From Escherichia phage vB_EcoM_ESCO47: a stretch of 64,000 bases of DNA. Positions within the stretch are counted from its first letter, which is position 1. Each line of letters begins with the position of its first letter. Below are positions 16,171 through 31,329 of this stretch, piece after piece. The notes beneath the pieces were generated by a model. That model was not told the origin of the DNA. It saw nothing but the letters and a program-made list of their open reading frames with translations, and ran no database searches. The stretch is taken from sequence record OM386662.1. The stretch is one strand, 5' to 3'. The translations under genes and the position numbers were made by a program.

Positions 16171-16171
16171 T

Positions 16172-16483
16172 ATGATGTATTATGCTTATTCAATAGCTTA
16201 TCGGGATTTCGAAGGATTCGTCCAACCGGTTCAGCTAGACTCTGAAAAACCGGCAATATTTTTTAAAAAGGAAGTTGCTGACAAAGTTTTCGATTATATT
16301 AAAAAGGAATACAAACAGGCTTTACGCATGGGAAGAATGAAAATGGTGGTTACACCTCGTAAGTTTTGGTTTGATAAAGTCGAAATGAAACATATAAAAT
16401 TAGATGAGGAGACTGAAAAATTATACCGACGAATTCTTGAAACAGGACGAGTCATTCGTGTACAGGTGGCAGGATTATTATGA
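16172..16483 (+). CDS. hypothetical protein (103 aa), dda.1 position
   Basis: Immediately upstream of dda with overlap; assigned by position only. Confidence 0.45.
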   Translation: MMYYAYSIAYRDFEGFVQPVQLDSEKPAIFFKKEVADKVFDYIKKEYKQALRMGRMKMVVTPRKFWFDKVEMKHIKLDEETEKLYRRILETGRVIRVQVAGLL

Positions 16484-17793
16484 AATTTGATGATTTGACG
16501 GACGGCCAGAAAAACGCCTTTAATGTTGTTATGAAGGCAATCAAAGAAAAGAAACACCATGTAACTATTAATGGTCCGGCTGGTACAGGTAAAACAACAC
16601 TCACACGGTTTATTGTTGAAGCTCTTATTTCAGCAGGTGAATCAGGTGTTATCTTAGCAGCCCCGACTCACGCCGCCAAAAAGGTTCTAAGTAAATTGGC
16701 CGGACAAGAAGCATCTACTATCCATAGTATTCTTAAAATCAACCCAACAACATACGAAGAAAACGTGTTATTTGAACAGAAACAGGCTCCTGATCTGGCA
16801 CTATGTCGAGTATTAGTGTTTGATGAAGCATCGATGTGTGATCGAAAACTTTTCCAGATTATGTTGGCAAGTATTCCAAAATGGTGTACAGTAATTGGCG
16901 TAGGTGACAGATGTCAGATTCGTCCTGTTGACCCAGGTGAAACAACAGCATATTTGAGCCCATTCTTTACGCATAAAGATTTTGTCCAATGTGACCTTAC
17001 AGAAGTCAAACGTAGTAATGCACCAATTATTGATGTTGCTACCGATATTCGTAATGGTAAATGGATTTATGATAAAATTGTTGACGGACATGGCGTTCAT
17101 GGCTACACTGATTTAAAATCATATATGATGAACTATTTTAATATCGTCAAAACGCCGGAAGACCTTTTCGAAAATCGAATGATGGCCTTCACAAATAAAT
17201 CTGTGGATAAATTAAATTCTGTTATTCGACGTAAGCTTTATCAAACAGAAGCTCCATTTATTAAAGATGAAGTTATTGTCCTTCAAGAACCTGTCACCAA
17301 GTCGTATAAACTCGATGGCAAAAATATGACTGAAATGCTTTTCAATAATGGCCAATTCGTTCGTATTAGAGACGCAGTTGAAACGTCCACATTTGTTAAA
17401 GCAAAGGGTGTTCCAGGCGAATATATGATACGATACTGGAATCTTAGTATTGAAACCTACGGTGATGATGAAGAATATAACAGAGAAGATATAAAGGTTA
17501 TTTCTTCGGATGAAGAGCTTTACAAATTTAATCTATTTTTAGCAAAAACAGCTGAAACGTATAAGTTCTGGAATAAAGGCGGTAAAGCTCCTTGGAATGA
17601 TTTCTGGGATGCTAAGCGAATGTTCACAAAGGTTAAAGCCCTTCCGGTATCAACCTTCCATAAAGCACAAGGTATGTCTGTTGATACGGCCTTTGTTTAT
17701 ACACCGTGTATCCATTACGCTGATTCTGAATTAGCAAAACAACTTCTGTACGTCGGTGCCACTCGTGGACGATTTGACGTCCATTATATTTGA
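16480..17793 (+). CDS. dda: Dda DNA helicase (SF1)
   Basis: 437 aa; Walker A GPAGTGKTT; near-colinear match to T4 Dda as I recall it. Confidence 0.95.
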   Translation: MKFDDLTDGQKNAFNVVMKAIKEKKHHVTINGPAGTGKTTLTRFIVEALISAGESGVILAAPTHAAKKVLSKLAGQEASTIHSILKINPTTYEENVLFEQKQAPDLALCRVLVFDEASMCDRKLFQIMLASIPKWCTVIGVGDRCQIRPVDPGETTAYLSPFFTHKDFVQCDLTEVKRSNAPIIDVATDIRNGKWIYDKIVDGHGVHGYTDLKSYMMNYFNIVKTPEDLFENRMMAFTNKSVDKLNSVIRRKLYQTEAPFIKDEVIVLQEPVTKSYKLDGKNMTEMLFNNGQFVRIRDAVETSTFVKAKGVPGEYMIRYWNLSIETYGDDEEYNREDIKVISSDEELYKFNLFLAKTAETYKFWNKGGKAPWNDFWDAKRMFTKVKALPVSTFHKAQGMSVDTAFVYTPCIHYADSELAKQLLYVGATRGRFDVHYI

Positions 17794-18482
17794 TTGAGGA
17801 AATTATGAATAATGATGTTATTATAGACTTTGAAACATTCGGTAATACGTCTAAAGCTGCGGTTATTGACCTTGCAGTTATTGCGTATAATTCCAACCCT
17901 GAAGTCGTAGAGACGTTTGAAGAACTCGTTCAACGTGGTAAACGAATTAAATTTAATCTTGCTTCACAGAAAGGAAAACGTGTTTTTGCTAAGACTACTA
18001 TGAAATGGTGGAAAGAGCAGTCAGATGAAGCTCGCAAAAACTTGGCACCAACTGAAGACGATGTTACCACTTTAGAGGGTATTAAAATCTTTTTGGACTA
18101 TTGCCGAGATAATAAAGTGGACCAATGGAAATCACAGATGTGGTGTCGTGGTATGAGCTTTGACTTTCCGATTCTGGTTGATTTAATTCGAGATCTTTAT
18201 CGTGACGAAGGTGTCCCAGAAGCAGAAATCGATACTGATAAACTTGAACCGGTTAAATTCTGGGCTCAACGTGACATCCGTACTGCAATTGAAGCTTACT
18301 CGTTGACGCGTGGATTAAGTATGTGTCCATTGCCAATGGGTACATTAAAAGGATTCGTTGCCCACGACAGTATTCATGATTGTGCTAAAGATATTTTGAT
18401 GTTAAAATATGCTCAACGTTATGCACTTGGACTTGAAGATGTGCCCGAGAATCCAGACCCATTAAGTGTAAAACAACGATAA
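17790..18482 (+). CDS. dexA: exonuclease A (DEDD 3'-5' exonuclease)
   Basis: IIDFETFG exo motif I near N-terminus; follows dda as in T4. Confidence 0.75.
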   Translation: MIEEIMNNDVIIDFETFGNTSKAAVIDLAVIAYNSNPEVVETFEELVQRGKRIKFNLASQKGKRVFAKTTMKWWKEQSDEARKNLAPTEDDVTTLEGIKIFLDYCRDNKVDQWKSQMWCRGMSFDFPILVDLIRDLYRDEGVPEAEIDTDKLEPVKFWAQRDIRTAIEAYSLTRGLSMCPLPMGTLKGFVAHDSIHDCAKDILMLKYAQRYALGLEDVPENPDPLSVKQR

Positions 18483-18486
18483 AACA

Positions 18487-18536
18487 GTTTACATCCTCTG
18501 TAGATATGTTATAATTCGTTCTATCAACTACAGAGG
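18487..18536 (+). promoter_or_regulatory. early promoter-like element with inverted repeat
   Basis: -35 GTTTAC 18487-18492, -10 TATAAT 18510-18515; arms CCTCTGTAG 18495-18503 and CTACAGAGG 18528-18536. Confidence 0.5.
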
Positions 18537-18556
18537 TAAGTAATACGATTACTGAT

Positions 18557-19048
18557 ATGGATCTAGCAAGTATGTACGGCACTCTTATTAAACCATTAAA
18601 AATTAAGGAACCAAAAATGGCTATCAAAATCGGCAAAACCTACAAACTGGTTGAACCTGAAATTAAAACTCCTGTACTGGTCGCTTCATATCATACTTTA
18701 AGCCTCCTTTTAGGTGATGAAGATTTCGAAATCGTATCTTTTAAAAGACATGTTTGGTTTGAAGGTTATGAAATAACGACTCGTCATCGTTCTTCAGGCC
18801 GAGTGGAAAATATTACTGTTTATACACACGAACTCGAGTTGTTTGAAGAATTGGTTCAAAAAGTTGTTGAAGACCCCACCGATCTTCTGTGTAAAGCAGT
18901 AAGCATTCGTCGTCCATTTGATAATCGTCGGATTTGTGGATGGGTAACTGATCAGTGGATTGAAGATGGTGTTGAGCTCTTGAACGTGGTCCATGATGGT
19001 GATTTTACTGTATGTCCACGTAGTGCAGTGGTTAATGTATTGAATTAA
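18557..19048 (+). CDS. hypothetical protein
   Basis: Alternative start ATG 18617 has AAGGAA RBS (143 aa); promoter element upstream. Confidence 0.45.
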   Translation: MDLASMYGTLIKPLKIKEPKMAIKIGKTYKLVEPEIKTPVLVASYHTLSLLLGDEDFEIVSFKRHVWFEGYEITTRHRSSGRVENITVYTHELELFEELVQKVVEDPTDLLCKAVSIRRPFDNRRICGWVTDQWIEDGVELLNVVHDGDFTVCPRSAVVNVLN

Positions 19049-19051
19049 TAG

Positions 19052-19099
19052 TTTTACTTCTCCTCTAGACATGATACTATAAACTTATCAACTAGAGGA
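19052..19099 (+). promoter_or_regulatory. early promoter-like element with inverted repeat
   Basis: -35 TTTTAC 19052-19057, -10 TACTAT 19075-19080; arms TCCTCTAG 19061-19068 and CTAGAGGA 19092-19099; ATG at 19107. Confidence 0.45.
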
Positions 19100-19106
19100 G
19101 AATAAT

Positions 19107-19634
19107 ATGTTAGTTTATCGAGTAGAACGTAGTTTTTGTACCCAAAGAGAATATTTGCCTTCAGTCGGATACGAAAACGGTGAAATGGTTCGTACCTGGG
19201 AGATATCCTGGAATAAAGAACCACGCTCACCTTACGGATGGTCTGGCACCGACAACTCTGAAGAAACCTGGGAATTCCTTGATAAACACGGGATATTGTC
19301 AGGCAACTTCTATCATAACGACGGCAATATAAACGCCCCTAATCGTCCTACAATCAAAAATGATCACCTCTTATCAAAAAATATTTTAAAACAAAATAAC
19401 CTTGATTTCATAGACCAAATAGCTGATTGGTTAGAGACAGGTGAATTTTACTTTGCGTTTGATACGGTCGACACGGTGTACCGATGGTTTGATAACTCCG
19501 ATGACATAGAACTCTTGAAGGCTAAAGGTTACTACATCGCGGTCTATGATGCTCCTGACGTCATTTTAGGCGACTCTCAACTTTTGTTCAAACGTTCTTC
19601 GGCAGAACAAGTTGATTTTATTTTAATAAAATGA
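19107..19634 (+). CDS. hypothetical protein (175 aa)
   Basis: Promoter element and GAGGAG RBS upstream; no motif recognised. Confidence 0.5.
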   Translation: MLVYRVERSFCTQREYLPSVGYENGEMVRTWEISWNKEPRSPYGWSGTDNSEETWEFLDKHGILSGNFYHNDGNINAPNRPTIKNDHLLSKNILKQNNLDFIDQIADWLETGEFYFAFDTVDTVYRWFDNSDDIELLKAKGYYIAVYDAPDVILGDSQLLFKRSSAEQVDFILIK

Positions 19635-19663
19635 TGTACAAACTGATAGTATTTTGTTACTAT
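19635..19663 (+). promoter_or_regulatory. early promoter-like element
   Basis: -35 TGTACA 19635-19640, -10 TACTAT 19658-19663, then AGACCTATCAA; ATG at 19692. Confidence 0.45.
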
Positions 19664-19691
19664 AGACCTATCAAAACAAGAGGAGAACATT

Positions 19692-19886
19692 ATGAAAACT
19701 TTATTAACTCAAGATCAATTTGAAGATATCCTTTTCGACCCAGAATTAGTTGTTGTTCAAAAAGAAATTACTAGTGGTCTTGAACACCATTCTTACGTAT
19801 ACGTTTATGAAAATGACAAACCAGTTATGGTTGCAGTACGTCACATCACAGGCGAAGGCACAACTTACTGGAAGGAAGCAATCTAA
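19692..19886 (+). CDS. hypothetical protein (64 aa)
   Basis: Promoter element and AGGAG RBS upstream. Confidence 0.45.
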
Positions 19887-20308
19887 TGGCTATTAAATTT
19901 GAAGTTAACAAATGGTACCAATTTAAAGATAAACGTGCCCAAGAAGAGTTTATTAAAGACCACACTGATAATGGGATTTATGCACGACGTCTTGGCATGG
20001 AACCATTTAAAGTATTAGATGTTGACCATCTTGGTCGTCCTACTAAAATTGTGACATCTACTGGCATGGTTGGATACGCAACAGGCGGTGATATCCTTGA
20101 TGAAAACTTTATCTGGCTCTCCACGAATGAAGCAGAGTTCTTTGTCGAAGTTGGAAATCCATACCAGGCAGCTGAAGAACAAGAACATGAAGAGCAAGAA
20201 CCAATGCCAGAATTGACTGAGTTCCCTTTACTGAAAGTTACTATTGAAAATAATGAACAAGCATGGTCTTTGTATCAAATGTTGAAAGCTCACTTTAAGG
20301 AACAATAA
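19886..20308 (+). CDS. hypothetical protein (140 aa)
   Basis: Stop/start overlap with upstream ORF; acidic C-terminal half. Confidence 0.5.
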
Positions 20309-20487
20309 TGCCGTTATACGACTATAAATGCCAATCTGAAGATTGTGGTCATGAATATGAAAAAATTAAAAGAATTTCTGAACGAGAAAACGATGTTTGC
20401 CCTGAATGTCATCGTCTGTCTACTCGTCGGGTTTCTGCTCCTAAACATGTGAACGGTGGTTTTTACGACTTACTTAAGAAGGATTGA
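20308..20487 (+). CDS. zinc-ribbon protein (FmdB-like, 59 aa)
   Basis: [18 protein letters not shown]...CPECHRLS: two CxxC pairs typical of FmdB-family Zn ribbons; below the ORF-track cutoff. Confidence 0.45.
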   Translation: MPLYDYKCQSEDCGHEYEKIKRISERENDVCPECHRLSTRRVSAPKHVNGGFYDLLKKD

Positions 20488-20489
20488 TT

Positions 20490-20915
20490 ATGGCTTTTAA
20501 AGGTTTTGAAGTTGGTAAGAAATATCGTATTATCAAAGGACAGGAAGATAATTTCTTGAGAATTCTTAATACGACTGGTAAACGTCTTAATACTAATCTG
20601 CATACTACTTTATTGTCCAAAGATTTTATTGTGGAAGAGATGATTGGTTATGGTGTTTCGATTATTGCTGTAGAAGCTGTAGGCGATTACGGCCGAACTA
20701 TTCATAGTATGCAAGGTGATATTCTGCTTTATGGTGCAGAATTTAAATTCTTTGAAGAAGTTCCGGAACCAGATACAGCTGTCGATTTCAAAAAAGGCTC
20801 TATAGAATTTGTTGATGGTTCGGTGATCGTATCAGGCGATGTGGTCATTACAGTTAAAAGTGAACAAGGGCGTTTGGCTGCAATTGATGCACTTCAGAAA
20901 ATTAAATTTAAATAA
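20490..20915 (+). CDS. hypothetical protein (141 aa)
   Basis: ATG 20490 preceded by AAGGA; listed ORF begins at TTG 20484; terminator follows. Confidence 0.5.
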   Translation: MAFKGFEVGKKYRIIKGQEDNFLRILNTTGKRLNTNLHTTLLSKDFIVEEMIGYGVSIIAVEAVGDYGRTIHSMQGDILLYGAEFKFFEEVPEPDTAVDFKKGSIEFVDGSVIVSGDVVITVKSEQGRLAAIDALQKIKFK

Positions 20916-20933
20916 GGGCTTCGGCCCTTTTTG
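20914..20933 (+). terminator. rho-independent terminator
   Basis: AAGGGC-TTCG-GCCCTT then TTT directly after stop at 20915. Confidence 0.6.
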
Positions 20934-20956
20934 CTTTAGATTTCGGATGATAGAAT
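20932..20956 (+). promoter_or_regulatory. candidate MotA-dependent middle promoter upstream of gene 39
   Basis: MotA box core TGCTTTA 20932-20938, 12-bp spacer, -10 TAGAAT 20951-20956. Confidence 0.5.
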
Positions 20957-20978
20957 ACCTTCATAACGAGGAGACAAC

Positions 20979-22796
20979 ATGATTAAAAATGAAATTAAAG
21001 TATTATCAGACGTAGAACATATTAAGAAACGTAGTGGTATGTATATTGGTTCTTCGGCTAAAGAAGCACATGAGCGTTTTTTGTTTGGTAAATATCAACA
21101 AGTTGAATATGTTCCTGGTCTGGTTAAATTAATCGATGAGATTATTGACAACTCGGTTGATGAAGCTATTCGTACATCATTTAAGTTCGCAAATAAAATT
21201 GATGTGCAAATTAAAAATAATCAAGTTTCGGTGGAAGATAACGGACGTGGTATTCCTCAAGGTTTAGTTACCGACCAAACAGGTGAACAAATTCCTGGGC
21301 CTGTAGCAGCCTGGACTATTCCAAAGGCCGGCGGTAACTTTGGCGATGACTCTGAACGCAAGACCGGTGGTATGAACGGCGTCGGGAGTAGTTTAACTAA
21401 TATCTTCTCTACGTTGTTTACAGGCATCACGTCAGATGGCGAAAATGAAATCACTGTTAATTGTTCAAACGGAATGGAAAACAAATCATGGTCTTCTAAG
21501 AAATCTAAAGGTAAAGGAACTAAAGTAATCTTCACTCCTGATTTCTCTTCATTTGAAGAGCATAATTTATCTCAAATTTATTTAGATATTACTTTAGACC
21601 GACTTCAAACATTGGCAGTCGTTTATCCTGATATCAAGTTCACATTTAATGGTAAAAAGGTTGATGGTAATTTTAAACGATTTGCTAAACAATTTGGCGA
21701 AGATAACATCATTCAAGAAAACGATAAAGTGTCAATCGCATTCACAACATCGCCTGACGGTTTTCGACATTTGACGTATGTGAACAACATTCATACTAAA
21801 AATGGTGGACATCATGTTGAATGTGTAATGGATGATATCTGCGAACATCTTTTGCCCGGTATTAAAAAGAAATATAAGGGTATTGAGGTAACTAAAGCTC
21901 GTGTTAAAGAATGTCTCACGATGCTGATGTTTATTCGTGATATGAGCAACATGCGTTTTGATTCTCAGACTAAAGAACGTTTAACGTCAACGTATGGTGA
22001 TATTCGTAATCATATCCAATTAGATGCTAAGAAAATTGCTCAGTCACTTCTTAAAAATGAAGCTCTGATTATGCCTATTGTTGAAGCAGCATTAGCTCGT
22101 AAATTAGCAGCAGAAAAGGCCGCCGAAACTAAAGCAGCTAAAAAGGCCACTAAAGCAAAAGTTCATAAGCATATTAAAGCTAATCAATGTGGTAAAGATG
22201 CAGATACGACATTGTTCTTAACAGAAGGTGATTCGGCAATTGGTTATCTCATTGATGTTCGTGACCGTGAACTACACGGCGGATTCCCATTACGTGGTAA
22301 GGTGATGAATAGCTGGGGTATGTCATATGCTGATATGATGAAGAACAAAGAGCTCTTTGATATCTGTGCTATCACAGGTCTTATTCTCGGTGAAAAGGCA
22401 GAGAACACGAACTATCGTAATATCGCAATTATGACCGATGCCGATCATGACGGTCTTGGAAGTATCTATCCGGCTTTGCTTGCTTTCTTTAGTAATTGGC
22501 CTGAATTGTTTGAACAAGGACGTATTCGCTTTGTTAAAACTCCGGTAATTATTGCACAAATTGGCAAAACACAAAAATGGTTTTATACTGTAGCTGAGTA
22601 TGAAGAAGCTAAAGAATCATTACCAAAACACGGTATTCGATATATTAAAGGACTTGGTTCACTTGAAAAATCCGAATACCGTGAAATGATTCAGAATCCA
22701 GTTTATGACGTAGTTAAATTGCCTGAAAACTGGAAAGAGTTGTTTGAAATGTTGATGGGTAATGACCCGGATCTTCGTAAAGAATGGATGTCCTAA
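20979..22796 (+). CDS. 39: DNA topoisomerase II large (ATPase) subunit, fused gp39+gp60 equivalent
   Basis: 605 aa GyrB-like; continuous frame with no bypass gap or inserted element. Confidence 0.92.
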   Translation: MIKNEIKVLSDVEHIKKRSGMYIGSSAKEAHERFLFGKYQQVEYVPGLVKLIDEIIDNSVDEAIRTSFKFANKIDVQIKNNQVSVEDNGRGIPQGLVTDQTGEQIPGPVAAWTIPKAGGNFGDDSERKTGGMNGVGSSLTNIFSTLFTGITSDGENEITVNCSNGMENKSWSSKKSKGKGTKVIFTPDFSSFEEHNLSQIYLDITLDRLQTLAVVYPDIKFTFNGKKVDGNFKRFAKQFGEDNIIQENDKVSIAFTTSPDGFRHLTYVNNIHTKNGGHHVECVMDDICEHLLPGIKKKYKGIEVTKARVKECLTMLMFIRDMSNMRFDSQTKERLTSTYGDIRNHIQLDAKKIAQSLLKNEALIMPIVEAALARKLAAEKAAETKAAKKATKAKVHKHIKANQCGKDADTTLFLTEGDSAIGYLIDVRDRELHGGFPLRGKVMNSWGMSYADMMKNKELFDICAITGLILGEKAENTNYRNIAIMTDADHDGLGSIYPALLAFFSNWPELFEQGRIRFVKTPVIIAQIGKTQKWFYTVAEYEEAKESLPKHGIRYIKGLGSLEKSEYREMIQNPVYDVVKLPENWKELFEMLMGNDPDLRKEWMS

Positions 22797-22818
22797 GCTC
22801 CTTCGGGAGCTTTATTTT
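22796..22818 (+). terminator. rho-independent terminator after gene 39
   Basis: AGCTCC-TTCG-GGAGCT then TTTATTTT. Confidence 0.6.
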
Positions 22819-22838
22819 AATTTTAATAAGGCTTAATT

Positions 22839-23939
22839 ATGAAAGTTATGTTTATCCCATCTCGTGCAGTCCCATTTAATCCTGACCGTGTACAAGGTGG
22901 TCTTGAAGCGGTACATTTAAATGTGTTGAAATATTTAGTTTCTATCGGTGCCGATATTGATTATATCGGTTTTGATAACGACACATTTGGTGATTGGAAA
23001 GTTACACACCATCCTGTTGGCCATCTTACTAAATTCAGTCTAGGTATGAGTTATACTATGGCTCGTAAGATTGTTGAACTGGCCGGCATCCATGAATACG
23101 ATTTTGTTGTTACTATGGAACCGACTAAACTAACCGTTCAGGCAATTAAAGACGCAGGTCTCTCTAAAGTTCATAAGAATTTTATGGCAACACCATTTGA
23201 ACCTGTATCTCGTGGCATTGTTCAAATTTGGGACCAGACTATTCAAATTCATAAGAACGGTGGTAAGAGTTATGCTCCTACTAAAGCCTTCCGTGAATTT
23301 GAACGCAAATATTGTCATATGACTTCAGGTCTGACAGACAAAATTGATTATGATTATTGGCGAGCAAATCCGTTGTTTGAAGCCGAAGATTATCCGGTTA
23401 TTTGTTTGAATGAGAAACCTGAAGTTCTTCCAGCAACTGATCTGATTATTAGTGCACAACGTTATGACACTAAAATGCGTCGTACTGATGTTGCTCTTGA
23501 AGCGATTAAAGCGCTCGGCGAAAATGGTGCAGGATACTGTCCTAGTAAATGGGCACCACCGGCTAAGTATCCAGTAACTATTGATGCTCCACATAGTGAA
23601 ATCATGGAACGCCTTAAAACAGCTAAAGCACTTATCAATACGTGTCCTGACACCGGCACGGTAGAGAATAGTTCTATTGAAGCTATTTCTAAAGGTGTAC
23701 CTGTGATTCAGCTAGTCTTTAAAGATTATCCACATGCTACGTTTGAATATGACCCTGACACGGTACGTGTAGAGATTGATGCTTCCACCCCTAAGAAAGA
23801 AGTAGTTATGCTTTACACAAAAGCTGTATTAGAATTCACTGACACATACGAATCACGAGTCAAACGTGCAGAATATGTATGGCAAAAGTATAATCGGGAT
23901 GCAGTTGTAGCGATGTGGGATAAAATCTTCACAGCGTAA
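22839..23939 (+). CDS. GT-B fold glycosyltransferase (candidate DNA hmC glycosyltransferase)
   Basis: 366 aa; C-terminal TGTVENSSIEAISKGVPVIQ resembles the nucleotide-sugar binding motif of GT-B enzymes; T4 has no such gene between 39 and rIIA. Confidence 0.55.
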   Translation: MKVMFIPSRAVPFNPDRVQGGLEAVHLNVLKYLVSIGADIDYIGFDNDTFGDWKVTHHPVGHLTKFSLGMSYTMARKIVELAGIHEYDFVVTMEPTKLTVQAIKDAGLSKVHKNFMATPFEPVSRGIVQIWDQTIQIHKNGGKSYAPTKAFREFERKYCHMTSGLTDKIDYDYWRANPLFEAEDYPVICLNEKPEVLPATDLIISAQRYDTKMRRTDVALEAIKALGENGAGYCPSKWAPPAKYPVTIDAPHSEIMERLKTAKALINTCPDTGTVENSSIEAISKGVPVIQLVFKDYPHATFEYDPDTVRVEIDASTPKKEVVMLYTKAVLEFTDTYESRVKRAEYVWQKYNRDAVVAMWDKIFTA

Positions 23940-24031
23940 ATCCTGAATAGCCTGAGGCACTATTACACATAAGATGATAAATTATATGGTCTTTGGTAAT
24001 AGTGTCATAGGAATCTACTGAAGAGAATATT

Positions 24032-24232
24032 ATGAGAACATATAACGTGGACTTGGAACTTTTTGATAAAGCGGTGCTCCGGGAATTCCGGCTTATCCAA
24101 AGATTTTTTGATATCGAGTCAGCAGAGTCCTTTAAAGAACGCTTTAAAGAAATTCGATATAAAATACAAACCGATACAGCTACTAAAGAAGAACTTCTTG
24201 AAGTAGCAGAAATTTTTAAACGTAACTTGTGA
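24032..24232 (+). CDS. hypothetical protein (66 aa)
   Basis: Immediately upstream of rIIA; no motif recognised. Confidence 0.45.
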   Translation: MRTYNVDLELFDKAVLREFRLIQRFFDIESAESFKERFKEIRYKIQTDTATKEELLEVAEIFKRNL

Positions 24233-24244
24233 CGAGAGAAAAAT

Positions 24245-26458
24245 ATGATTATTGAAACGGCTAAAGAAACGATTATTGGTTCAGGCGGTAAGAGCACAGC
24301 ATTCACTATTCAAGCAAACAGTAAAGTGTATAAGATTCTTTCTAACGATCTTTACACAAACAAAGAACGAGCTTGTGTACGTGAATTAATCACAAACTGT
24401 ATTGATGGGCAAATTCTTAATGGCTGCACTGATAAGTTTATTGTTCAGGCACCAGGTCGTTTAGACCCACGTTTTGTAGTTCGAGACTTTGGTCCTGGTA
24501 TGAGTGATTTCACCATTCGAGGTAATGACGAAGAGCCAGGAATTTATAACTCATATTTTGCTTCAACTAAAACATCGAGTAACGATTTCATTGGTGGATT
24601 CGGACTCGGTTCTAAAGCTCCATTAGCATATACTGATACGTTTAACATTACTTCTTATCATAATGGTGAAGTTCGTGGTTATGTAATTTATCAAGATGAC
24701 AGTGGTCCACAGATTAAGCCAACCTTCGTAGATAAGATGGGTCCTGATGACCGGACCGGTGTTGAAGTAGTTGTGCCTGTTAACCCAGAAGATTTTGAAA
24801 AGTTCGCATCCGAAATTGCTTATGTTATGCGTCCTCTCGGCGATATTGCAGAAGTTCGTGGTGTTAAAGATATCAAATACTTCCCTGATTTCGACGACGT
24901 TTATCTGGCCAAGGATGCTCCATGGGGTGAACGTGGTAACATCATGGCTGTTTATGGTGGTATTGTATATCCTATCAGTGACGCTATTAAAGAACAAACA
25001 TGGATGATGACGCGATGCACTACAGCTTATATTAAATTCCCCATGGGTGAACTAGATGTAGCCCCGTCTCGTGAAGCATTGTCATTTGATAAACGTACAG
25101 TAGCAAATATCCATAAACGTGTTGCAGAAATTGATGCAAAATTATTTGCTGAAGATTCTAAGAAATGGATTGATTGTGAATATCCACGTCATGTATTCCG
25201 TGAAATCGATTCTCTTGGTTACTCTGCTCGTAAATACATGGAAAAAGCTGGTTCTAATATTGAATCACTGAAATATTCTAAAGAACAGCTAACTTATTCT
25301 GAGTTGTACAAACGTTTTAAAATGGGTCCTGAATGGTGCAACCTTGGTGTTGTATACGATATCGTTTCAGACCCACGTCTTCGTCGTATTCGTGAAAGCG
25401 GAAGCTCGTCTGCAACTATTTCAATTAATAGCCTGCTAGGTATTAGCCGTAAGCATATTGATATTGTTATTGACGATGTGAAAGGCCGCGTACCAATGAT
25501 GCGTGCTCTGAACGATGCTTTGACTTCCACTGATGCATCAACACTCGTTGATAAGGTTCCTTCCGGATGGGGTAGTAGCGTATTATTCATTAACCCGGAA
25601 GATGAAGTTGCAATGAAACTTCTAGAACGATTAAAGGTTATTTTCGCTGGGGATAGCCTTAAATTTTATAAGACATCTGAAATTCTTGCATTAGTTAAAC
25701 CGTGGATTGAAGTTAAAGAACGTTCATCGCAGCCTCGTCCTAAATCCCCAAGTGCTCATCGGTTCTTTAAGAATGAAAACGATGTTTGGGTATCAGAAGA
25801 TCTCTTTATTCCAGCGAGTGAAGCTGATGAAATCCAAGGTTATGCTATAGTTCGTAATCGTTCTAATGCTGAATGTCTTGACGCAGATAAAGGTTGGTTG
25901 AACTATGACTCCAATTTCTTGACCCGTATTGCTGATTTGTCAGGTATTAAAGAGTTCACTGTAGTCCGTCCACAGATTGCTAAGAAAGTTCGTAAACTTG
26001 GTGAAGTAGAATGCTTGTTCGAAAAATCAATTAATGACTATATTACGCTAATTGATAAAGTGGATTATGATGAGTATGTATCACCAAGTCGTAGAGCACA
26101 GCCTTATTTGAATCATATTACTCGTAATGAAGAGCTTAACTTCCTTAGTAAGTATTTTAGCTCTAAGAACAAAGAAATCAGTAAAGATTTTGCAAAACTT
26201 TCAACAGTAAATAATCGTTGGGGATGGAATCGATTCTCAGGTGTTACTAACAGAGAACTGAATAAGAAGTTGGAATTGTGTGCTAAAATTTTCGATAAGC
26301 TTAAAGATAATGCTTACGATAATGATGATAAAATGGTTATTGAATTCGAAACCAATTATCATATTGTGTCAGACTACATGGGACGACGTGGTACTCTTTC
26401 CAAAGAACAGGTCGCTCAAATCGTTAAATTCATGAAGGCCGTGGAAGCGGCCAAATAA
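24245..26458 (+). CDS. rIIA: rIIA membrane-associated protein (GHKL ATPase-like N-domain)
   Basis: 737 aa; Bergerat-fold motifs ELITNCIDG, DFGPGM, GGFGLGSKA; followed by rIIB. Confidence 0.9.
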   Translation: MIIETAKETIIGSGGKSTAFTIQANSKVYKILSNDLYTNKERACVRELITNCIDGQILNGCTDKFIVQAPGRLDPRFVVRDFGPGMSDFTIRGNDEEPGIYNSYFASTKTSSNDFIGGFGLGSKAPLAYTDTFNITSYHNGEVRGYVIYQDDSGPQIKPTFVDKMGPDDRTGVEVVVPVNPEDFEKFASEIAYVMRPLGDIAEVRGVKDIKYFPDFDDVYLAKDAPWGERGNIMAVYGGIVYPISDAIKEQTWMMTRCTTAYIKFPMGELDVAPSREALSFDKRTVANIHKRVAEIDAKLFAEDSKKWIDCEYPRHVFREIDSLGYSARKYMEKAGSNIESLKYSKEQLTYSELYKRFKMGPEWCNLGVVYDIVSDPRLRRIRESGSSSATISINSLLGISRKHIDIVIDDVKGRVPMMRALNDALTSTDASTLVDKVPSGWGSSVLFINPEDEVAMKLLERLKVIFAGDSLKFYKTSEILALVKPWIEVKERSSQPRPKSPSAHRFFKNENDVWVSEDLFIPASEADEIQGYAIVRNRSNAECLDADKGWLNYDSNFLTRIADLSGIKEFTVVRPQIAKKVRKLGEVECLFEKSINDYITLIDKVDYDEYVSPSRRAQPYLNHITRNEELNFLSKYFSSKNKEISKDFAKLSTVNNRWGWNRFSGVTNRELNKKLELCAKIFDKLKDNAYDNDDKMVIEFETNYHIVSDYMGRRGTLSKEQVAQIVKFMKAVEAAK

Positions 26459-26467
26459 GGAAACATT

Positions 26468-27403
26468 ATGTACAATATCAAATGCTTGTCCCAAGAAGAA
26501 CAGTTAGAAGCTTACGGCCTGGTTGAATCAGGCAAATGGACCCGTAAAGAAATTGCCGATTACTTTGACATTTCAACAGATACTCTTCGTAAGATTGTTA
26601 AGAATTTTAAAGCTGAAGAGAAAGCCTCTGAATTTGAAGACGAAGAACAGGTCCCAGAAAATAATGAACCTATTATTACAGGTCATCGTCCAGAAATCGT
26701 ATGGAACGCGTCGTCTAAATTTATTTCAATTATTGAAGGACGCGATTCATATAATGCGACACCAACAAGCCATGCGAATTTTGAAGAAATTAAAGCTAAT
26801 TTGGTCGCAGGAAACTTTGCTAAAGCTATCGAACTTATTAACCTCAAGAAAGCTATTACTAAGTATGTTGATGGTAATATTATTATTGAAGGTGGTCGCC
26901 TATTTTATCAAGGAATAGAAATTCGTTCAGGACTTGTCGATCGTATTATCGACTCTATGGAAAAAGGCGAAGACTTTAAATTTTATCTGCCATTCCTTGA
27001 AAACTTGTTAGAAAACCCAAGTGAAAAAGCAGTTCAACGCTTATTCGACTTCTTGGTTGCAAACGATATTGAAATCACTGAAGACGGTCATTTCTACGCA
27101 TGGAAAGTAGTTCGTAAAGACTATTTAGATTGCTATAGTGGCACATTTGATAACTCGCCTGGTAAAGTTGTTTCAATGCCTCGTACTCGTGTTAACGATG
27201 ATGATACTCAAACTTGTTCCAGTGGTCTACATGTTTGTGCTAAATCATATATTCGTTACTTTGGTTCTAGCTCAGATAAAGTTGTTAAGGTTAAAGTTCA
27301 TCCACGTGATGTTGTATCCATCCCAGTTGACTACGGTGATGCTAAGATGCGTACTTGTCGTTATGAAGTAATTTCAGACGTTACTGAATTATTTGCAGAA
27401 TAA
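26468..27403 (+). CDS. rIIB: rIIB protein
   Basis: 311 aa; MYNIKCL... and C-terminal half closely match T4 rIIB as I recall it. Confidence 0.93.
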   Translation: MYNIKCLSQEEQLEAYGLVESGKWTRKEIADYFDISTDTLRKIVKNFKAEEKASEFEDEEQVPENNEPIITGHRPEIVWNASSKFISIIEGRDSYNATPTSHANFEEIKANLVAGNFAKAIELINLKKAITKYVDGNIIIEGGRLFYQGIEIRSGLVDRIIDSMEKGEDFKFYLPFLENLLENPSEKAVQRLFDFLVANDIEITEDGHFYAWKVVRKDYLDCYSGTFDNSPGKVVSMPRTRVNDDDTQTCSSGLHVCAKSYIRYFGSSSDKVVKVKVHPRDVVSIPVDYGDAKMRTCRYEVISDVTELFAE

Positions 27404-27408
27404 TAATT

Positions 27409-27431
27409 GGGGACTTCGGTCCCCTTTTTTC
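27409..27431 (+). terminator. rho-independent terminator after rIIB
   Basis: GGGGAC-TTCG-GTCCCC then TTTTTT. Confidence 0.75.
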
Positions 27432-27444
27432 TTTAGGGGTAATT

Positions 27445-27732
27445 ATGATTCATCCATTTGACGTATCAGAATCCAAAATTGCTAATCTTCGCGGTCATCA
27501 TAAGTGTAAATCAGTTTATTGTGCTAAATTGGTAAAACATCCTGGCGATGCACACTACGGCTGGTTAGAATGTGACGAAGTTGTTATTGAAATCCCTCCT
27601 GTGGATGCAGAATACCTTGAAGAAGGTGATCGCATTTATTTAGGTGAACTACATATTAGAGGTATCTATGGTAAAGACGAACTTGGGACTACTGAGACTG
27701 AAGAGTCTTCCGACATTTATCCTGTCGAATGA
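27445..27732 (+). CDS. hypothetical protein (95 aa)
   Basis: Follows rIIB terminator; Cys/His-containing N-terminal half. Confidence 0.5.
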   Translation: MIHPFDVSESKIANLRGHHKCKSVYCAKLVKHPGDAHYGWLECDEVVIEIPPVDAEYLEEGDRIYLGELHIRGIYGKDELGTTETEESSDIYPVE

Positions 27733-27748
27733 GTTTCTGACTAGCGAA

Positions 27749-28225
27749 ATGAAGGTAAAGATCGCGGATACAGCCAAGTATTCTCTTAGTCAAGACCCTG
27801 ATCAAATCAAAGAAGACGTAGTTCGTCGTTGTAAGGTTGCAGTCTTTGCCGAGTATGTAGTCGCTAATTGGTTAGATGGATATGTTAATAAAGGCATTGA
27901 AGATGTTGAAGACCCTTACACGTATGCATGGGATGTTCTAGCTCATCCTAAATACTGTGGATTGCGTGTAGAAGTCAAGACTCATCAGATGGACTCACGT
28001 TGGATTTCAGTCACTACAGGATATAGTGGCGATTATCCGGGTGGTAATGGAATCAATATAGGGCCCTTCTTGAATCATCGAGTCGCAGATTGCATTATTA
28101 TATTAAATGCCAAAGAAACCTCACCTGACGTCTTCTCTTATTCTATAAAGTTCGCGGGAGACCATGAAGACCTAAAGAAAATCGTCCGCAAGAGCAACTA
28201 CAACGGGTGGTATCTTCATCTTTAA
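27749..28225 (+). CDS. putative PD-(D/E)xK-type nuclease (DenB position)
   Basis: D...EVK-like motif WDVLAHPKYCGLRVEVKT; start ambiguous (GTG 27644, ATG 27668 with AGAGG, or ATG 27749). Confidence 0.4.
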   Translation: MKVKIADTAKYSLSQDPDQIKEDVVRRCKVAVFAEYVVANWLDGYVNKGIEDVEDPYTYAWDVLAHPKYCGLRVEVKTHQMDSRWISVTTGYSGDYPGGNGINIGPFLNHRVADCIIILNAKETSPDVFSYSIKFAGDHEDLKKIVRKSNYNGWYLHL

Positions 28226-28237
28226 TTTCATAAAAGT

Positions 28238-28273
28238 GTTTACAGCTAAGTAGGACTATGATATAGTAGTCCT
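28238..28273 (+). promoter_or_regulatory. early promoter-like element with inverted repeat
   Basis: -35 GTTTAC 28238-28243, -10 TATAGT 28262-28267; arms AGGACTA 28252-28258 and TAGTCCT 28267-28273; ATG at 28294. Confidence 0.5.
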
Positions 28274-28293
28274 ATCTAAAGGAGGATAACATC

Positions 28294-28557
28294 ATGAAAT
28301 TTAAATTTTTCTACGCAAAACATAAAGTGACCGGTGAGTTTGTTTCAATGTACAACACCGCAGATGACGAAGGGATGATTTATACCCATTTGGGTCTATC
28401 TCATTGGGATTCAGACGTGCCTTATATGTCATCTGAAGCCGAAATAACTCGTCTGGTTAATGGACATATGAACGACCATTTTGGTGTTATTCTTTCTAAA
28501 GACCTTAAAGAGGTTATCAACAAAGGATATATGGAACTCGCGGAAGTTGAGATATGA
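28294..28557 (+). CDS. hypothetical protein (87 aa)
   Basis: Promoter element and GGAGGA RBS upstream. Confidence 0.5.
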   Translation: MKFKFFYAKHKVTGEFVSMYNTADDEGMIYTHLGLSHWDSDVPYMSSEAEITRLVNGHMNDHFGVILSKDLKEVINKGYMELAEVEI

Positions 28558-28640
28558 GCTCTAAAATGTGGATAGGAATATGGTTGCTTAGTATCCCAAT
28601 GATTTGTATAATATTTTCAATTGCATTGAGGTACTTATGA
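28554..28640 (+). CDS. hydrophobic micro-protein (28 aa)
   Basis: ATGA-coupled to upstream ORF; single predicted TM segment. Confidence 0.25.
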   Translation: MSSKMWIGIWLLSIPMICIIFSIALRYL

Positions 28641-28747
28641 AAAATGCACTTCTTATTGTACTAAGAACAATTTGTGATACGGGTTTTTACATTGCATGTT
28701 CGTTCACTGGAACATGGTTGGCTTTAACATATTTTAATGTAATTTAA
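28637..28747 (+). CDS. hydrophobic micro-protein (36 aa)
   Basis: ATGA-coupled to preceding micro-ORF; hydrophobic. Confidence 0.25.
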   Translation: MKNALLIVLRTICDTGFYIACSFTGTWLALTYFNVI

Positions 28748-28749
28748 TT

Positions 28750-28779
28750 GTTTACATCAAGGTAGGATTATGGTATAGT
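28750..28779 (+). promoter_or_regulatory. early promoter-like element
   Basis: -35 GTTTAC 28750-28755, -10 TATAGT 28774-28779, then AGTCCTATCAA; ATG at 28808. Confidence 0.5.
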
Positions 28780-28807
28780 AGTCCTATCAAAATATGAGGA
28801 ACACAAA

Positions 28808-29008
28808 ATGACTAAGCTTTTTAAAGATGTTGAAATTGGTGAAAAATTTGTCCTGAATAATGGTCAGCAGCTTATTCGTGTAGCTTCTATAGCCGGACAA
28901 ACTCATAACTGCATCGCCCCGACGTATTGGACCCGATTCTTTATTGAGGATGACACCGAATGTTTAACTGTTGAAGAGCTTTTTGAACGTTCTGATATAA
29001 CCGAATAA
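28808..29008 (+). CDS. hypothetical protein (66 aa)
   Basis: Promoter element and GAGGAA RBS upstream. Confidence 0.45.
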   Translation: MTKLFKDVEIGEKFVLNNGQQLIRVASIAGQTHNCIAPTYWTRFFIEDDTECLTVEELFERSDITE

Positions 29009-29010
29009 AA

Positions 29011-29046
29011 TTGTACAAACTCCTGAGAGCAGAGTATAATGCTCTC
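29011..29046 (+). promoter_or_regulatory. promoter-like element (TTGTAC type) with inverted repeat
   Basis: TTGTAC 29011-29016, -10 TATAAT 29035-29040; arms GAGAGCA 29025-29031 and TGCTCTC 29040-29046; near-identical copy at 56780; ATG at 29085. Confidence 0.5.
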
Positions 29047-29084
29047 ATGGATTACAAAACATCAACTTACTTGAGGAAATTTAT

Positions 29085-29534
29085 ATGAACAATTACATGA
29101 CTCGTCGCGATATCCTGGCAGCTGGTGGTACTACGGTTGCTTACGTTCAGAATGGTAAATACCAGTCAGGTGAACCATCTAAAGCGGTTGCAGCACAACC
29201 TGGATTCTACTTCTTTGTTAAAGGTTTTAGTAACTCTCGTGTAGTAGCTGCCCGGTTTTATGTAGGTAATCAACGTTCTAAACAGGGACTTGATGGTATT
29301 GTAGCTAATATCCGTAAACAACGTTCTCAAGCTGCTCGCACCATGGCCACCAACAACGTAATTTACGAAGTGTTATACGTCCCAGCATCTAAGATGAAAC
29401 CTCTGACAACCGGCATTGGTAAAAGACAGTTAGTGATGGCTTTCACTCGCAATCACAGTTCAGATCTACAGACACTGGAAGAAATGAACCGAATTCTGGC
29501 CGACAACTTTAAATTCATCTTACAGAGTTACTAA
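29085..29534 (+). CDS. ndd: nucleoid disruption protein Ndd-like
   Basis: 149 aa; [13 protein letters not shown]...[12 protein letters not shown]...TLEEMNR.LADNFKF matches T4 Ndd as I recall it; position between rIIB and 52. Confidence 0.6.
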
Positions 29535-29576
29535 TCCGGTAATAAAACGGCGTCTTAGGACGCCACTGGGGAAATT

Positions 29577-29741
29577 ATGCAACCGATTTTAACTTTTATC
29601 TGGTTAGTGACTGTTATTGTGTTGGTAACCCTTTTTGCAGCAGGTGTATGGGTTCCAGGTCCTTTTGTTGTTGGATTTATTTGTGTGTGGTTCATACTAG
29701 ACGCAATCGTTAAATTTTTAGTAACGGTATTTAACCGATGA
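29577..29741 (+). CDS. small membrane protein (54 aa)
   Basis: Hydrophobic; between ndd and 52 where T4 carries small peptides (stp/ac region). Confidence 0.4.
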   Translation: MQPILTFIWLVTVIVLVTLFAAGVWVPGPFVVGFICVWFILDAIVKFLVTVFNR

Positions 29742-29878
29742 TTAAACAAATCTTTGGCTACTCGATAGCCCTTGCTGCTTTATTAGTGGCATTATATTAT
29801 GGTGTTATGTTCGGGCTAATCCAAGTCGTGCTTTTCATTTCTGATGTTATTATGGCACTACATTCACTAGTATGGTAA
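29738..29878 (+). CDS. small membrane protein (46 aa)
   Basis: ATGA-coupled to upstream ORF; hydrophobic. Confidence 0.35.
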   Translation: MIKQIFGYSIALAALLVALYYGVMFGLIQVVLFISDVIMALHSLVW

Positions 29879-29882
29879 ATTT

Positions 29883-31208
29883 ATGCAACTGAATAATCGT
29901 GATTTAAAAAGTATTATTGATAATGAAGCACTAGCGTATGCAATGTATACGGTTGAAAACCGTGCAATCCCAAACATGATTGATGGGTTTAAACCGGTTC
30001 AACGATTTGTTATTCATCGTGCATTGGACTTGGCTCGTGGAAACAAAGAAAAATTCCATAAACTGGCTTCAATCGCTGGTGGTGTAGCTGATCTCGGTTA
30101 TCACCACGGTGAATCTTCAGCACAAGATGCCGGTGCTCTGATGGCTAACACATGGAATAACAACTATCCATTATTAGATGGACAAGGCAACTTTGGTTCA
30201 CGAACGGTTCAAAAGGCTGCAGCATCTCGTTATATTTTTGCTCGTATCAGTAAAAATTTCTATAACGTCTATAAAGATTCTGAGTATGCTCCAGAACATG
30301 AAGATAAAGAACACGTTCCACCAAAATTCTATCTTCCAATTATCCCGACGGTTCTATTGAACGGTGTTTCTGGTATCGCAACCGGGTATGCAACAAGCAT
30401 TCTGCCTCATAGTTTTAAATCTGTTAAGAAGGCTGTATTACAAGCTCTTCAAGGTAAAAATATCACTAAGCCTAAAGTTGAATTCCCAGAGTTTCGCGGC
30501 GAAGTGCATGAAGTTGAAGACCGATATGAAATTCACGGCACATATAAATTCACATCTCGGACTCAAATGCAAATCACCGAGATTCCATATAAATTTGATC
30601 GTGAAACGTATGTGAGTAAAGTTCTCGACCCGTTAGAAGATAAAGGGTTGATTACATGGGAAGATGACTGCGGTGAACATGGTTTCGGATTTAAGGTGAA
30701 GTTCCGTAAAGAGTATTCGCTTCCGGACGATGAAGCTCTTCGTCATGAGAAAATCATGAAAGACTTTAGTCTTATTGAACGTCGTTCCCAGAACATTACT
30801 GTTATCAATGAAAAAGGCAAGTTGGCTGTATATGATAACGTTGTTGATTTGATTAAAGATTTTGTTGAAGTCCGTAAGACTTACGTTCAAAAACGTATTG
30901 ACAACAAAATCGTTGAATCAGAAAAAGCTTTTAAACTAGCTTTTGCCAAGGCGCATTTTATCAAGAAAGTTATTGCCGGTGAAATCGTGATTCAAGGCAA
31001 GACTCGTAAAGCTTTGACCGAAGAGTTATCACAAGTGGAAATGTATAAAGAACATGTAGACAAGTTAGTAGGTCTTAACATCTTCCATATCACATCAGAT
31101 GAAGCACGTAAACTAGCAGAAGAAGCTAAAGCTAAGAAAGAAGAAAATGAGTACTGGAAATCTACAGATGTCGTAGCAGAGTACACTAAAGACCTGGAGT
31201 CTCTATGA
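29883..31208 (+). CDS. 52: DNA topoisomerase II medium subunit gp52 (GyrA-like)
   Basis: 441 aa; MIDGFKPVQRFV motif. Confidence 0.93.
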   Translation: MQLNNRDLKSIIDNEALAYAMYTVENRAIPNMIDGFKPVQRFVIHRALDLARGNKEKFHKLASIAGGVADLGYHHGESSAQDAGALMANTWNNNYPLLDGQGNFGSRTVQKAAASRYIFARISKNFYNVYKDSEYAPEHEDKEHVPPKFYLPIIPTVLLNGVSGIATGYATSILPHSFKSVKKAVLQALQGKNITKPKVEFPEFRGEVHEVEDRYEIHGTYKFTSRTQMQITEIPYKFDRETYVSKVLDPLEDKGLITWEDDCGEHGFGFKVKFRKEYSLPDDEALRHEKIMKDFSLIERRSQNITVINEKGKLAVYDNVVDLIKDFVEVRKTYVQKRIDNKIVESEKAFKLAFAKAHFIKKVIAGEIVIQGKTRKALTEELSQVEMYKEHVDKLVGLNIFHITSDEARKLAEEAKAKKEENEYWKSTDVVAEYTKDLESL

Positions 31209-31288
31209 GCTTCACAGGCCTAGCCCTCGGGTTCTTGGTCACAGTCACATTGTTAGTCATCTTACTTCTATGGTTAGACCGTGAATGA
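31205..31288 (+). CDS. hydrophobic micro-protein (27 aa)
   Basis: ATGA-coupled to gene 52 stop; ends at the terminator hairpin. Confidence 0.25.
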   Translation: MSFTGLALGFLVTVTLLVILLLWLDRE

Positions 31289-31310
31289 GGAGCCTTCGGG
31301 CTCCTTTTTG
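31288..31310 (+). terminator. rho-independent terminator after gene 52 region
   Basis: GGAGCC-TTCG-GGCTCC then TTTTT. Confidence 0.7.
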
Positions 31311-31329
31311 TGCATTTTTACACAAAACA

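What the first reader, a model, noticed from the sequence alone, without database searches (positions are those of the whole stretch)
22839..23939. GT-B glycosyltransferase inserted between topoisomerase gene 39 and rIIA
T4 has only small ORFs between gene 60/39 and rIIA, and its glucosyltransferases sit elsewhere. Here a 366-aa protein with a GT-B-type nucleotide-sugar binding motif (TGTVENSSIEAISKGVPVIQ) occupies this junction, while the T4 beta-glucosyltransferase slot holds unrelated genes. This is a candidate DNA hydroxymethylcytosine glycosyltransferase; its sugar specificity cannot be read from sequence.
Basis: partly seen in the sequence, partly recalled or inferred. Interest (0 to 1): 0.6.

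Follow-up and report, generated by a model that had tools for sequence, protein, structure and literature searches.

The report
Known phage DNA arabinosyltransferase (RB69 gp3)
The gene is real, but it is the already described RB69 ORF003c/gp3-type sugar transferase, whose 97-98% identical HY126 counterpart has a crystal structure; it belongs to a pathway that decorates 5-hydroxycytosine (not hydroxymethylcytosine) in phage DNA with arabinose, so the finding is ordinary.

Summary
The ORF at 22839..23939 (+, 366 aa) exists as described, lies between topoisomerase gene 39 and rIIA.1/rIIA, and is under strong purifying selection (dN/dS about 0.05). It is 98% identical to RB69 ORF003c/gp3 and 97% to the phage HY126 glycosyltransferase, whose crystal structures (PDB 9IQZ apo, 9IR0 with UDP) were released in 2025. 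My AlphaFold model (pLDDT 91) superimposes on them at TM 0.94-0.97, and its next neighbours are GT4-type GT-B enzymes. The GT-B call is therefore right. The hmC part is wrong. The window's gene-42 homolog carries the D169N signature of 5-hydroxy-dCMP synthases, and published chemistry for RB69 and its relatives shows mono- and di-arabinofuranosyl-5-hydroxycytosine. The T4 beta-gt slot holds the proposed first arabinosyltransferase plus a kinase. Copy number of the ORF003c type tracks the number of arabinoses where both are known: 0 copies in mono-pentosylated Thanatos, 1 in di-arabinosylated Mosigviruses, 2 in tri-arabinosylated DLP3-type Acinetobacter phages. This supports the published proposal that the enzyme adds the second arabinose. 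That step is still unproven in the papers I could read. Verdict: already known, low interest.

The parts
22839..23939 (+). ORF003c/gp3-type GT-B glycosyltransferase, 366 aa; proposed second (chain-extending) DNA arabinofuranosyltransferase
23652..23711 (+). Codons for residues 272-291 (TGTVENSSIEAISKGVPVIQ), the nucleotide-sugar-binding block of the C-terminal Rossmann domain
   Evidence: T272 G273 T274 V275 E276 S279 E281 A282 I283 S284 G286 P288 V289 Q291 are invariant in the 10-sequence family alignment. The block aligns with the EX7E region of a Pfam-GT4-positive protein: the second Glu is kept as E281, the first Glu position is G273.
22795..22812 (+). Hairpin AAGCTCC-TTCG-GGAGCTT followed by a T-run, between the gene 39 stop and the ORF; terminator-like or RNA-stability element
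   Evidence: Only terminator-like site in 22600-24300, but this count is not above the shuffle expectation. Conserved in RB69 and HY126. Function not tested.
22828..22831 (+). AAGG ribosome-binding site, 7 nt upstream of the ATG
   Evidence: Read directly from the sequence; conserved in RB69 and HY126.
1861..2577 (+). Thymidylate-synthase homolog in the gene 42 position; 5-hydroxy-dCMP synthase, makes the base that is later arabinosylated
   Evidence: PF00303. D169N and N177D signature in an alignment with E. coli ThyA, T4 gp42 and RB69 gp48. E 1.6e-161 to the HY126 structures 9iqc/9ir2. Activity of RB69 gp48 shown in PMC13326640.
2577..3476 (+). 299-aa protein in the T4 beta-gt slot; homolog of RB69 gp47+gp46; proposed first arabinosyltransferase
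   Evidence: Colinear with RB69 gp47/gp46. 47% identical to Lazarus gp075. Found in 348 phage records of many genera. No Pfam, NCBIfam or PDB sequence hit. The glycosyltransferase fold is claimed only in the literature and was not re-tested here.
3478..4026 (+). Nucleotide kinase-like protein (RB69 gp45 homolog)
   Evidence: PHROG 761 thymidylate kinase, E 2e-43; colinear with RB69 gp45.
422..1582 (+). Peptidase-U32-family protein (RB69 gp50 homolog) inside the cluster; role unknown
   Evidence: PF01136 E 6e-11; weak UbiU hit; 221 phage records. See Noticed in passing.
1..364 (+). 3' part of the HAD-like phosphatase gene (RB69 gp51 / HY126 AfhF homolog), cut by the window start
   Evidence: The window starts 23 nt into RB69 gp51 by colinearity. 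Function taken from PMC13326640.
20979..22796 (+). Gene 39, topoisomerase II large subunit (fused 39+60 form); upstream flank
24032..24232 (+). rIIA.1; downstream flank
   Evidence: PF24210 E 2e-30.

Best explanation
The ORF encodes the Mosigvirus ortholog of RB69 ORF003c/gp3 and of the crystallised phage HY126 glycosyltransferase. It is a GT4-like GT-B enzyme that binds a UDP-sugar in its C-terminal domain. It belongs to the pathway that replaces cytosine in phage DNA with arabinofuranosyl-5-hydroxycytosine. In that pathway a ThyA-like synthase makes 5-hydroxy-dCMP, and the base is incorporated at replication. UDP-arabinofuranose is made by cluster genes that lie just upstream of the window. 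A first transferase, the 299-aa protein next to the synthase, is thought to attach alpha-Araf to the 5-OH. This enzyme most likely adds the second arabinofuranose, beta-1,3 to the first, on DNA. The thicker sugar coat blocks restriction and other DNA-targeting defences. Shown: orthology, fold, UDP binding by the 97-98% identical ortholog, the 5-hydroxy chemistry signature in the window, and the copy-number pattern. Inferred: donor identity for this protein, DNA-linked arabinose as acceptor, and the second-step role.
Against: No accessible paper shows activity for this protein or its RB69, HY126 or Bas46 ortholog. As of mid-2026 the sequential model is still described as hypothesised. Single DLP3 transferases were inactive in vitro on 5hoC-DNA, so the first step is also unassigned. 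The Thanatos homolog of the proposed first transferase was reported instead as a UDP-xylose pyrophosphorylase. All close structural neighbours are retaining GT4 enzymes, whereas the proposed product is a beta linkage after an alpha one from a single donor, so one of the two transferases must invert. The family lacks the first Glu of EX7E. The arabinose counts for LC53 and Maestro were not available to me. He et al. 2026 and Mahler et al. 2025, which probably hold direct data, could not be read.
Confidence: 0.6

Rival explanations
1. It is the primary transferase, attaching the first arabinose directly to 5-hydroxycytosine (on DNA or on the nucleotide), as first proposed for RB69 ORF003c. On this reading the 299-aa protein beside the synthase does something else, such as sugar-nucleotide metabolism.
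For: Thomas et al. 2018 proposed ORF003c as the arabinosyltransferase for the final step. The Bas46 record annotates the homolog as 'putative hmC-arabinosyltransferase' (H60). The HY126 group crystallised this protein and titled the entries 'phage HY126 glycosyltransferase' in the singular. The Thanatos homolog of the 299-aa protein showed UDP-xylose pyrophosphorylase activity, not transferase activity, in vitro. The 299-aa protein has no sequence-detectable glycosyltransferase signal.
Against: Arabinosylated or pentosylated phages LC53 and Thanatos, and more than 100 other records with the synthase-linked 299-aa type, have no ORF003c-type gene at E<=1e-3, so another enzyme must make the first bond there. 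Copy number tracks the number of arabinoses beyond the first. DLP3 paralogs of this family act on DNA that is already arabinosylated.
Confidence: 0.2
2. It is active only as part of a complex with the other transferase, or serves mainly as a non-catalytic or specificity subunit, rather than as a free-standing second-step enzyme.
For: In DLP3 neither gp76 nor gp77 alone gave product; both were needed for the third arabinose. The first Glu of the GT4 EX7E motif is missing in the whole family.
Against: The UDP-bound crystal structure of the ortholog, the invariant nucleotide-binding block and the conserved Arg residues point to a competent active site. The gene lies 19 kb from the other transferase in Mosigviruses, with no tandem partner.
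Confidence: 0.1
3. One reading: it is a hydroxymethylcytosine DNA glycosyltransferase, functionally equivalent to T4 alpha- or beta-glucosyltransferase.
Confidence: 0.02
4. It glycosylates a non-DNA acceptor such as a host envelope glycan, a protein or a small molecule, and sits at this junction for unrelated reasons.
For: The closest structural neighbours act on lipids, thiols, pterins and LPS. The gene is 19 kb from the cluster in Mosigviruses.
Against: Homologs are embedded in the arabinosylation cluster in three other phage lineages. The family is confined to phages that carry the 5hoC-arabinose genes: 12 representatives among 1.84 billion proteins. Paralogs act on DNA in vitro.
Confidence: 0.05

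Closest known systems
RB69 ORF003c / gp3 (NP_861693.1)
   Same: 366 aa, 357/366 identical, same position between rIIA.1 and gene 39, same upstream hairpin and RBS. Proposed arabinosyltransferase (2018) and second, beta-arabinosyltransferase (2026).
   Different: Nine substitutions (T56N, H160Y, T247I, A315S, M324A, T327I, S339A, Y346A, Q349K), none at a family-invariant or nearly invariant column. About 93% nucleotide identity.
Phage HY126 glycosyltransferase, PDB 9IQZ (apo) and 9IR0 (UDP complex)
   Different: About 8 to 10 substitutions. The biochemical results of the associated paper (He et al. 2026) could not be read.
Acinetobacter phage DLP3 gp77/gp76, represented here by Lazarus gp073/gp072 and Maestro 078/077
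   Same: Same family over the full length, 40-43% identity. UDP-Araf-dependent arabinosylation of already arabinosylated DNA shown in vitro for the DLP3 pair.
   Different: Two tandem paralogs, 57% identical to each other, a duplication after the split from the Mosigvirus lineage. They lie inside the cluster after the kinase, and both are needed to add a third arabinose. The window has a single copy 19 kb from the cluster.
GT4-type GT-B glycosyltransferases (sucrose-phosphate synthase 6kih, BshA, BGluT, PimA/PimB', MshA, WaaG)
   Different: 10-14% identity. No Pfam or NCBIfam hit at any threshold. The first Glu of EX7E is replaced (G273, with an invariant E276 three residues later). The acceptor is presumably a sugar on DNA. 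GT4 enzymes retain configuration, whereas a beta product has been proposed here.
T4 alpha-glucosyltransferase (1y6f) and beta-glucosyltransferase
   Different: No sequence or profile similarity. Different base (hmC versus 5-hydroxyC), sugar (glucose versus arabinofuranose), probable acceptor (base hydroxyl versus first sugar) and genome position.

Membership tests
RB69 ORF003c/gp3 - HY126 glycosyltransferase family (PHROG 8302) | Full-length sequence match to the founding members | tested here: met
   98% to RB69 gp3, 97% to HY126, E 3e-248 to 9iqz, PHROG 8302 E 3e-220 over 1-366.
RB69 ORF003c/gp3 - HY126 glycosyltransferase family (PHROG 8302) | Mosigvirus position between rIIA.1 and gene 39 | tested here: met
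   Same order in the window, RB69 and HY126. Stated in PMC13390438.
RB69 ORF003c/gp3 - HY126 glycosyltransferase family (PHROG 8302) | Co-occurrence with a 5-hydroxy-dCMP synthase (D169N) and UDP-arabinose genes | tested here: inconclusive
   Synthase with D169N, first-transferase homolog, kinase and the 3' part of the HAD phosphatase are in the window. The isomerase and the bifunctional kinase/pyrophosphorylase lie upstream of position 1 and cannot be seen; they are present in RB69 at the colinear place.
RB69 ORF003c/gp3 - HY126 glycosyltransferase family (PHROG 8302) | Arabinofuranosyl transfer from UDP-Araf to DNA | not testable with these tools
   Shown only for the DLP3 gp76+gp77 pair. 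No accessible assay for the RB69, HY126 or Bas46 orthologs.
GT-B fold glycosyltransferases, GT4-like | Two Rossmann-like domains with an inter-domain cleft | tested here: met
GT-B fold glycosyltransferases, GT4-like | Binds a nucleotide-diphosphate donor | tested here: met
   Indirect: the 97-98% identical ortholog was crystallised with UDP (9ir0). The nucleotide-binding block is invariant in the family.
GT-B fold glycosyltransferases, GT4-like | Passes the Pfam Glyco_transf_4 or Glycos_transf_1 model threshold | tested here: not met
   No Pfam family at E<=1 and no NCBIfam family. Only a distant relative, P0017, passes Glyco_transf_4.
GT-B fold glycosyltransferases, GT4-like | EX7E motif | tested here: inconclusive
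   The second Glu is kept (E281). The first Glu position is G273 in the hhalign alignment, with an invariant E276 three residues later. The alignment is with one sequence only.
T4-type hmC DNA glucosyltransferases (alpha-GT, beta-GT) | Sequence or profile homology to T4 a-gt or b-gt | tested here: not met
   BLASTP E>=7. hhalign probability 0.2% to each.
T4-type hmC DNA glucosyltransferases (alpha-GT, beta-GT) | The phage makes hydroxymethylcytosine as the acceptor | tested here: not met
   The gene-42 homolog has Asn at the ThyA D169 position, where T4 gp42 keeps Asp. It is near-identical to the HY126 hydroxylase structures. RB69 and NP DNA lack the methylene bridge.

The most novel reading that the evidence does not exclude
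The enzyme may be mechanistically unusual for its fold. It has a GT4 ('retaining') scaffold that has lost the first Glu of EX7E, yet it is proposed to make a beta-Araf-(1->3)-Araf bond on a sugar already attached to duplex DNA. If that is correct, one of two things follows. Either it is an inverting enzyme on a retaining-family scaffold, or the donor is the beta-anomer and the unrelated 299-aa first transferase is the inverting one. It may also work only together with that first transferase, as the DLP3 paralogs need each other.
Probability: 0.2. Interest if true: 0.45.

Novelty: already known. Interest (0 to 1): 0.15.

Why it matters
Arabinosylated 5-hydroxycytosine protects Mosigvirus-type phages, which are common therapy candidates, against restriction enzymes, CRISPR-Cas and DNA glycosylases, and the number of sugars seems to tune that protection. 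This gene is the likely switch from one to two arabinoses. The gene, its family, its crystal structure and this proposed role are all already published, so this window adds only one more ortholog. What remains open in the accessible literature is a direct biochemical assignment of first versus second transferase and the stereochemical mechanism.

Tried and rejected
Single-sequence AlphaFold gave an unusable model (pLDDT 35) and was replaced by a run on a 12-sequence alignment. Pfam, NCBIfam and HMMER profile searches of the PDB gave nothing beyond the HY126 entry. Three rounds of homolog search plus one exhaustive HMMER search converged on a tiny family, about 11 clusters at 90% identity and 12 representatives at 50%, so no deeper alignment was possible. 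BLASTP and hhalign against T4 a-gt, T4 b-gt and the window's own 299-aa protein showed no relationship. The promoter scan found nothing above chance on the + strand upstream of the ORF. He et al. 2026 (Nat Chem Biol) and Mahler et al. 2025 (Cell Host Microbe) are not held under DOI or PubMed id, and searches for the Afh and Aat names in other papers gave no detail on this enzyme's activity. I considered a specific orthology to DLP3 gp77 and rejected it, because the two Acinetobacter paralogs cluster together. I considered a foreign insertion and rejected it, because composition is normal.

Full report
OBSERVATION. The quoted motif begins at residue 272. Upstream is a fused gene 39 topoisomerase II large subunit (20979..22796). 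Downstream are rIIA.1 (24032..24232), rIIA and rIIB. A 42-nt spacer after gene 39 holds a GCTCC-TTCG-GGAGC hairpin with a T-run and an AAGG ribosome-binding site. Both are conserved in RB69 and HY126. The ORF is a real gene. Against RB69, 63 of 76 nucleotide differences are at third codon positions and dN/dS is 0.048. Composition is normal.

THE PATHWAY IS NOT hmC GLYCOSYLATION. The 5' end of the window is colinear with RB69 gp51 to gp45. It holds the 3' part of a HAD phosphatase gene (1..364), a U32-family protein (422..1582), a thymidylate-synthase homolog in the gene 42 position (1861..2577), a 299-aa protein (2577..3476), a kinase (3478..4026) and then uvsX. Lee et al. 2026 (PMC13326640) showed that this D169N signature marks enzymes that make 5-hydroxy-dCMP. 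They also showed that RB69 DNA carries beta-D-Araf-(1-3)-alpha-D-Araf linked directly to C5 through oxygen, with no methylene bridge. The window's protein is near-identical to the solved HY126 enzyme (9IQC/9IR2). NP, Bas46 and Bas47, all Mosigviruses, likewise carry mono- and di-arabinosylated 5-hydroxycytosine. The T4 beta-gt slot holds the protein that the literature proposes as the first arabinosyltransferase.

HOW IT MOST LIKELY WORKS, AND MY OWN TESTS. In three other lineages the homologs lie inside the arabinosylation cluster, directly after the kinase. Acinetobacter phages Lazarus and Maestro have two tandem copies, and an uncultured T4-like phage has one copy next to uvsX. This ties the family to the pathway independently of the Mosigvirus position. 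The window's protein is 43% and 40% identical to the two Lazarus paralogs. These are 57% identical to each other and branch together in a neighbour-joining tree. The Mosigvirus gene is thus co-orthologous to both, not specifically to the 'gp77 type'. The DLP3 pair (gp76 plus gp77) adds a third arabinose from UDP-Araf to RB69 DNA in vitro, which gives the family a demonstrated chemistry. The first-transferase type is found in 348 phage records of many genera. The ORF003c type is found in 211, confined to Mosigviruses and Acinetobacter phages. Copy number is 0 in Serratia phage LC53 and in Thanatos, 1 in Mosigviruses and 2 in Lazarus and Maestro. Reported sugars are one for Thanatos, up to two for RB69, NP, Bas46 and Bas47, and three for DLP3. 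This series is what a chain-extending enzyme predicts. I put 0.6 on the full statement: a UDP-Araf-dependent enzyme that adds the second arabinose on DNA. Orthology is essentially certain, and a role in DNA arabinosylation is about 0.85.

WHAT IS NOT SETTLED. No paper I could read shows activity for this protein or its close orthologs. Single DLP3 transferases were inactive on 5hoC-DNA. The Thanatos homolog of the proposed first transferase was reported as a UDP-xylose pyrophosphorylase. I found no sequence-level glycosyltransferase signal in the 299-aa protein. The rival reading, that ORF003c is the primary transferase, therefore keeps about 0.2. The stereochemistry is also open. An alpha bond followed by a beta bond from one donor needs one retaining and one inverting enzyme, yet this protein resembles retaining GT4 enzymes. 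He et al. 2026 and Mahler et al. 2025 probably answer part of this but are not held. A citing paper says only that deletion of 'Aat' in Bas46 sensitised the phage to a defence system.

VERDICT. Novelty: already known. Interest: low (0.15).

SIDE OBSERVATION. The cluster's U32-family protein (422..1582) is 82-88% identical across phages of many enterobacterial genera and Shewanella, and was not found in Acinetobacter phages. In LC53 and in one Klebsiella phage it sits next to a chorismate mutase. Cellular U32 proteins (RlhA, which makes 5-hydroxycytidine in rRNA; TrhP; UbiU/V) are O2-independent hydroxylases that depend on prephenate, the product of chorismate mutase (PMC5727448, PMC6599085, PMC10990095). 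The flavin-type 5-hydroxy-dCMP synthase needs O2. An anaerobic second route to 5-hydroxycytosine is therefore a testable idea, and I did not find it in the accessible literature. The Fe-S cysteine motif is only partly conserved, and many Dhakavirus-type phages lack the gene, so this remains a lead and not a result.

Noticed in passing
window 422..1582 (U32-family protein); L008 3796-5306 (Serratia phage LC53): A peptidase-U32-family gene sits inside the arabinosyl-5-hydroxycytosine cluster. In LC53 and in Klebsiella phage PP582757.1 it is adjacent to a type II chorismate mutase (PF01817 E 1.7e-11 in LC53). Cellular U32 proteins (RlhA for ho5C in rRNA, TrhP, UbiU/V) are O2-independent, prephenate-dependent hydroxylases, so this could be an anaerobic second route to 5-hydroxycytosine alongside the O2-dependent flavin synthase. 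It is 82-88% identical across genera and was not found in Acinetobacter phages. It is also missing from many Dhakavirus-type phages, and the Fe-S Cys motif is only partly kept. No held paper proposes this.
   Followed up: partly
window 2577..3476: The proposed first arabinosyltransferase is one intact 299-aa ORF here and in many Mosigviruses (single tblastn piece, 98-99.7% identity). The RB69 RefSeq record splits it into gp47 and gp46. This agrees with the published statement that the RB69 split is a sequencing error.
   Followed up: partly
window 2577..3476 and its Thanatos homolog TH1_063: This protein family has no Pfam, NCBIfam, PDB-sequence or profile link to any glycosyltransferase. Its Thanatos homolog was reported to act as a UDP-xylose pyrophosphorylase in vitro. 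The enzyme that makes the first base-sugar bond is therefore not yet demonstrated.
   Followed up: partly
L006 2244-3344 (HY126 GenBank PP658200.1) versus PDB 9iqz: The GenBank HY126 protein reads V-L-G at residues 287-289, whereas the crystallised HY126 chain, the window, RB69 and all family members read V-P-V (P288 and V289 are family-invariant). This is probably a sequence error in the GenBank record.
   Followed up: no
window 22795..22812: A stable hairpin with a UUCG-type tetraloop and a T-run lies directly after the gene 39 stop codon. It is conserved in RB69, and HY126 has one loop change. It may be a terminator or an mRNA-stability element separating gene 39 from the transferase gene. 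No + strand promoter above chance lies upstream of the ORF.
   Followed up: partly
window 1579..1818: This 79-aa ORF (RB69 gp49 homolog) occupies the place where LC53 has a chorismate mutase. It shows no similarity to that protein or to any Pfam family, and its function is unknown.
   Followed up: partly
window 8773..9432: Full-length match to AdfA, anti-DarT factor A (PF23813, E 3e-118), a known anti-defence gene of T-even phages.
   Followed up: no
window 1..64000: No tRNA genes and no Rfam family at gathering threshold anywhere in the window.
   Followed up: yes
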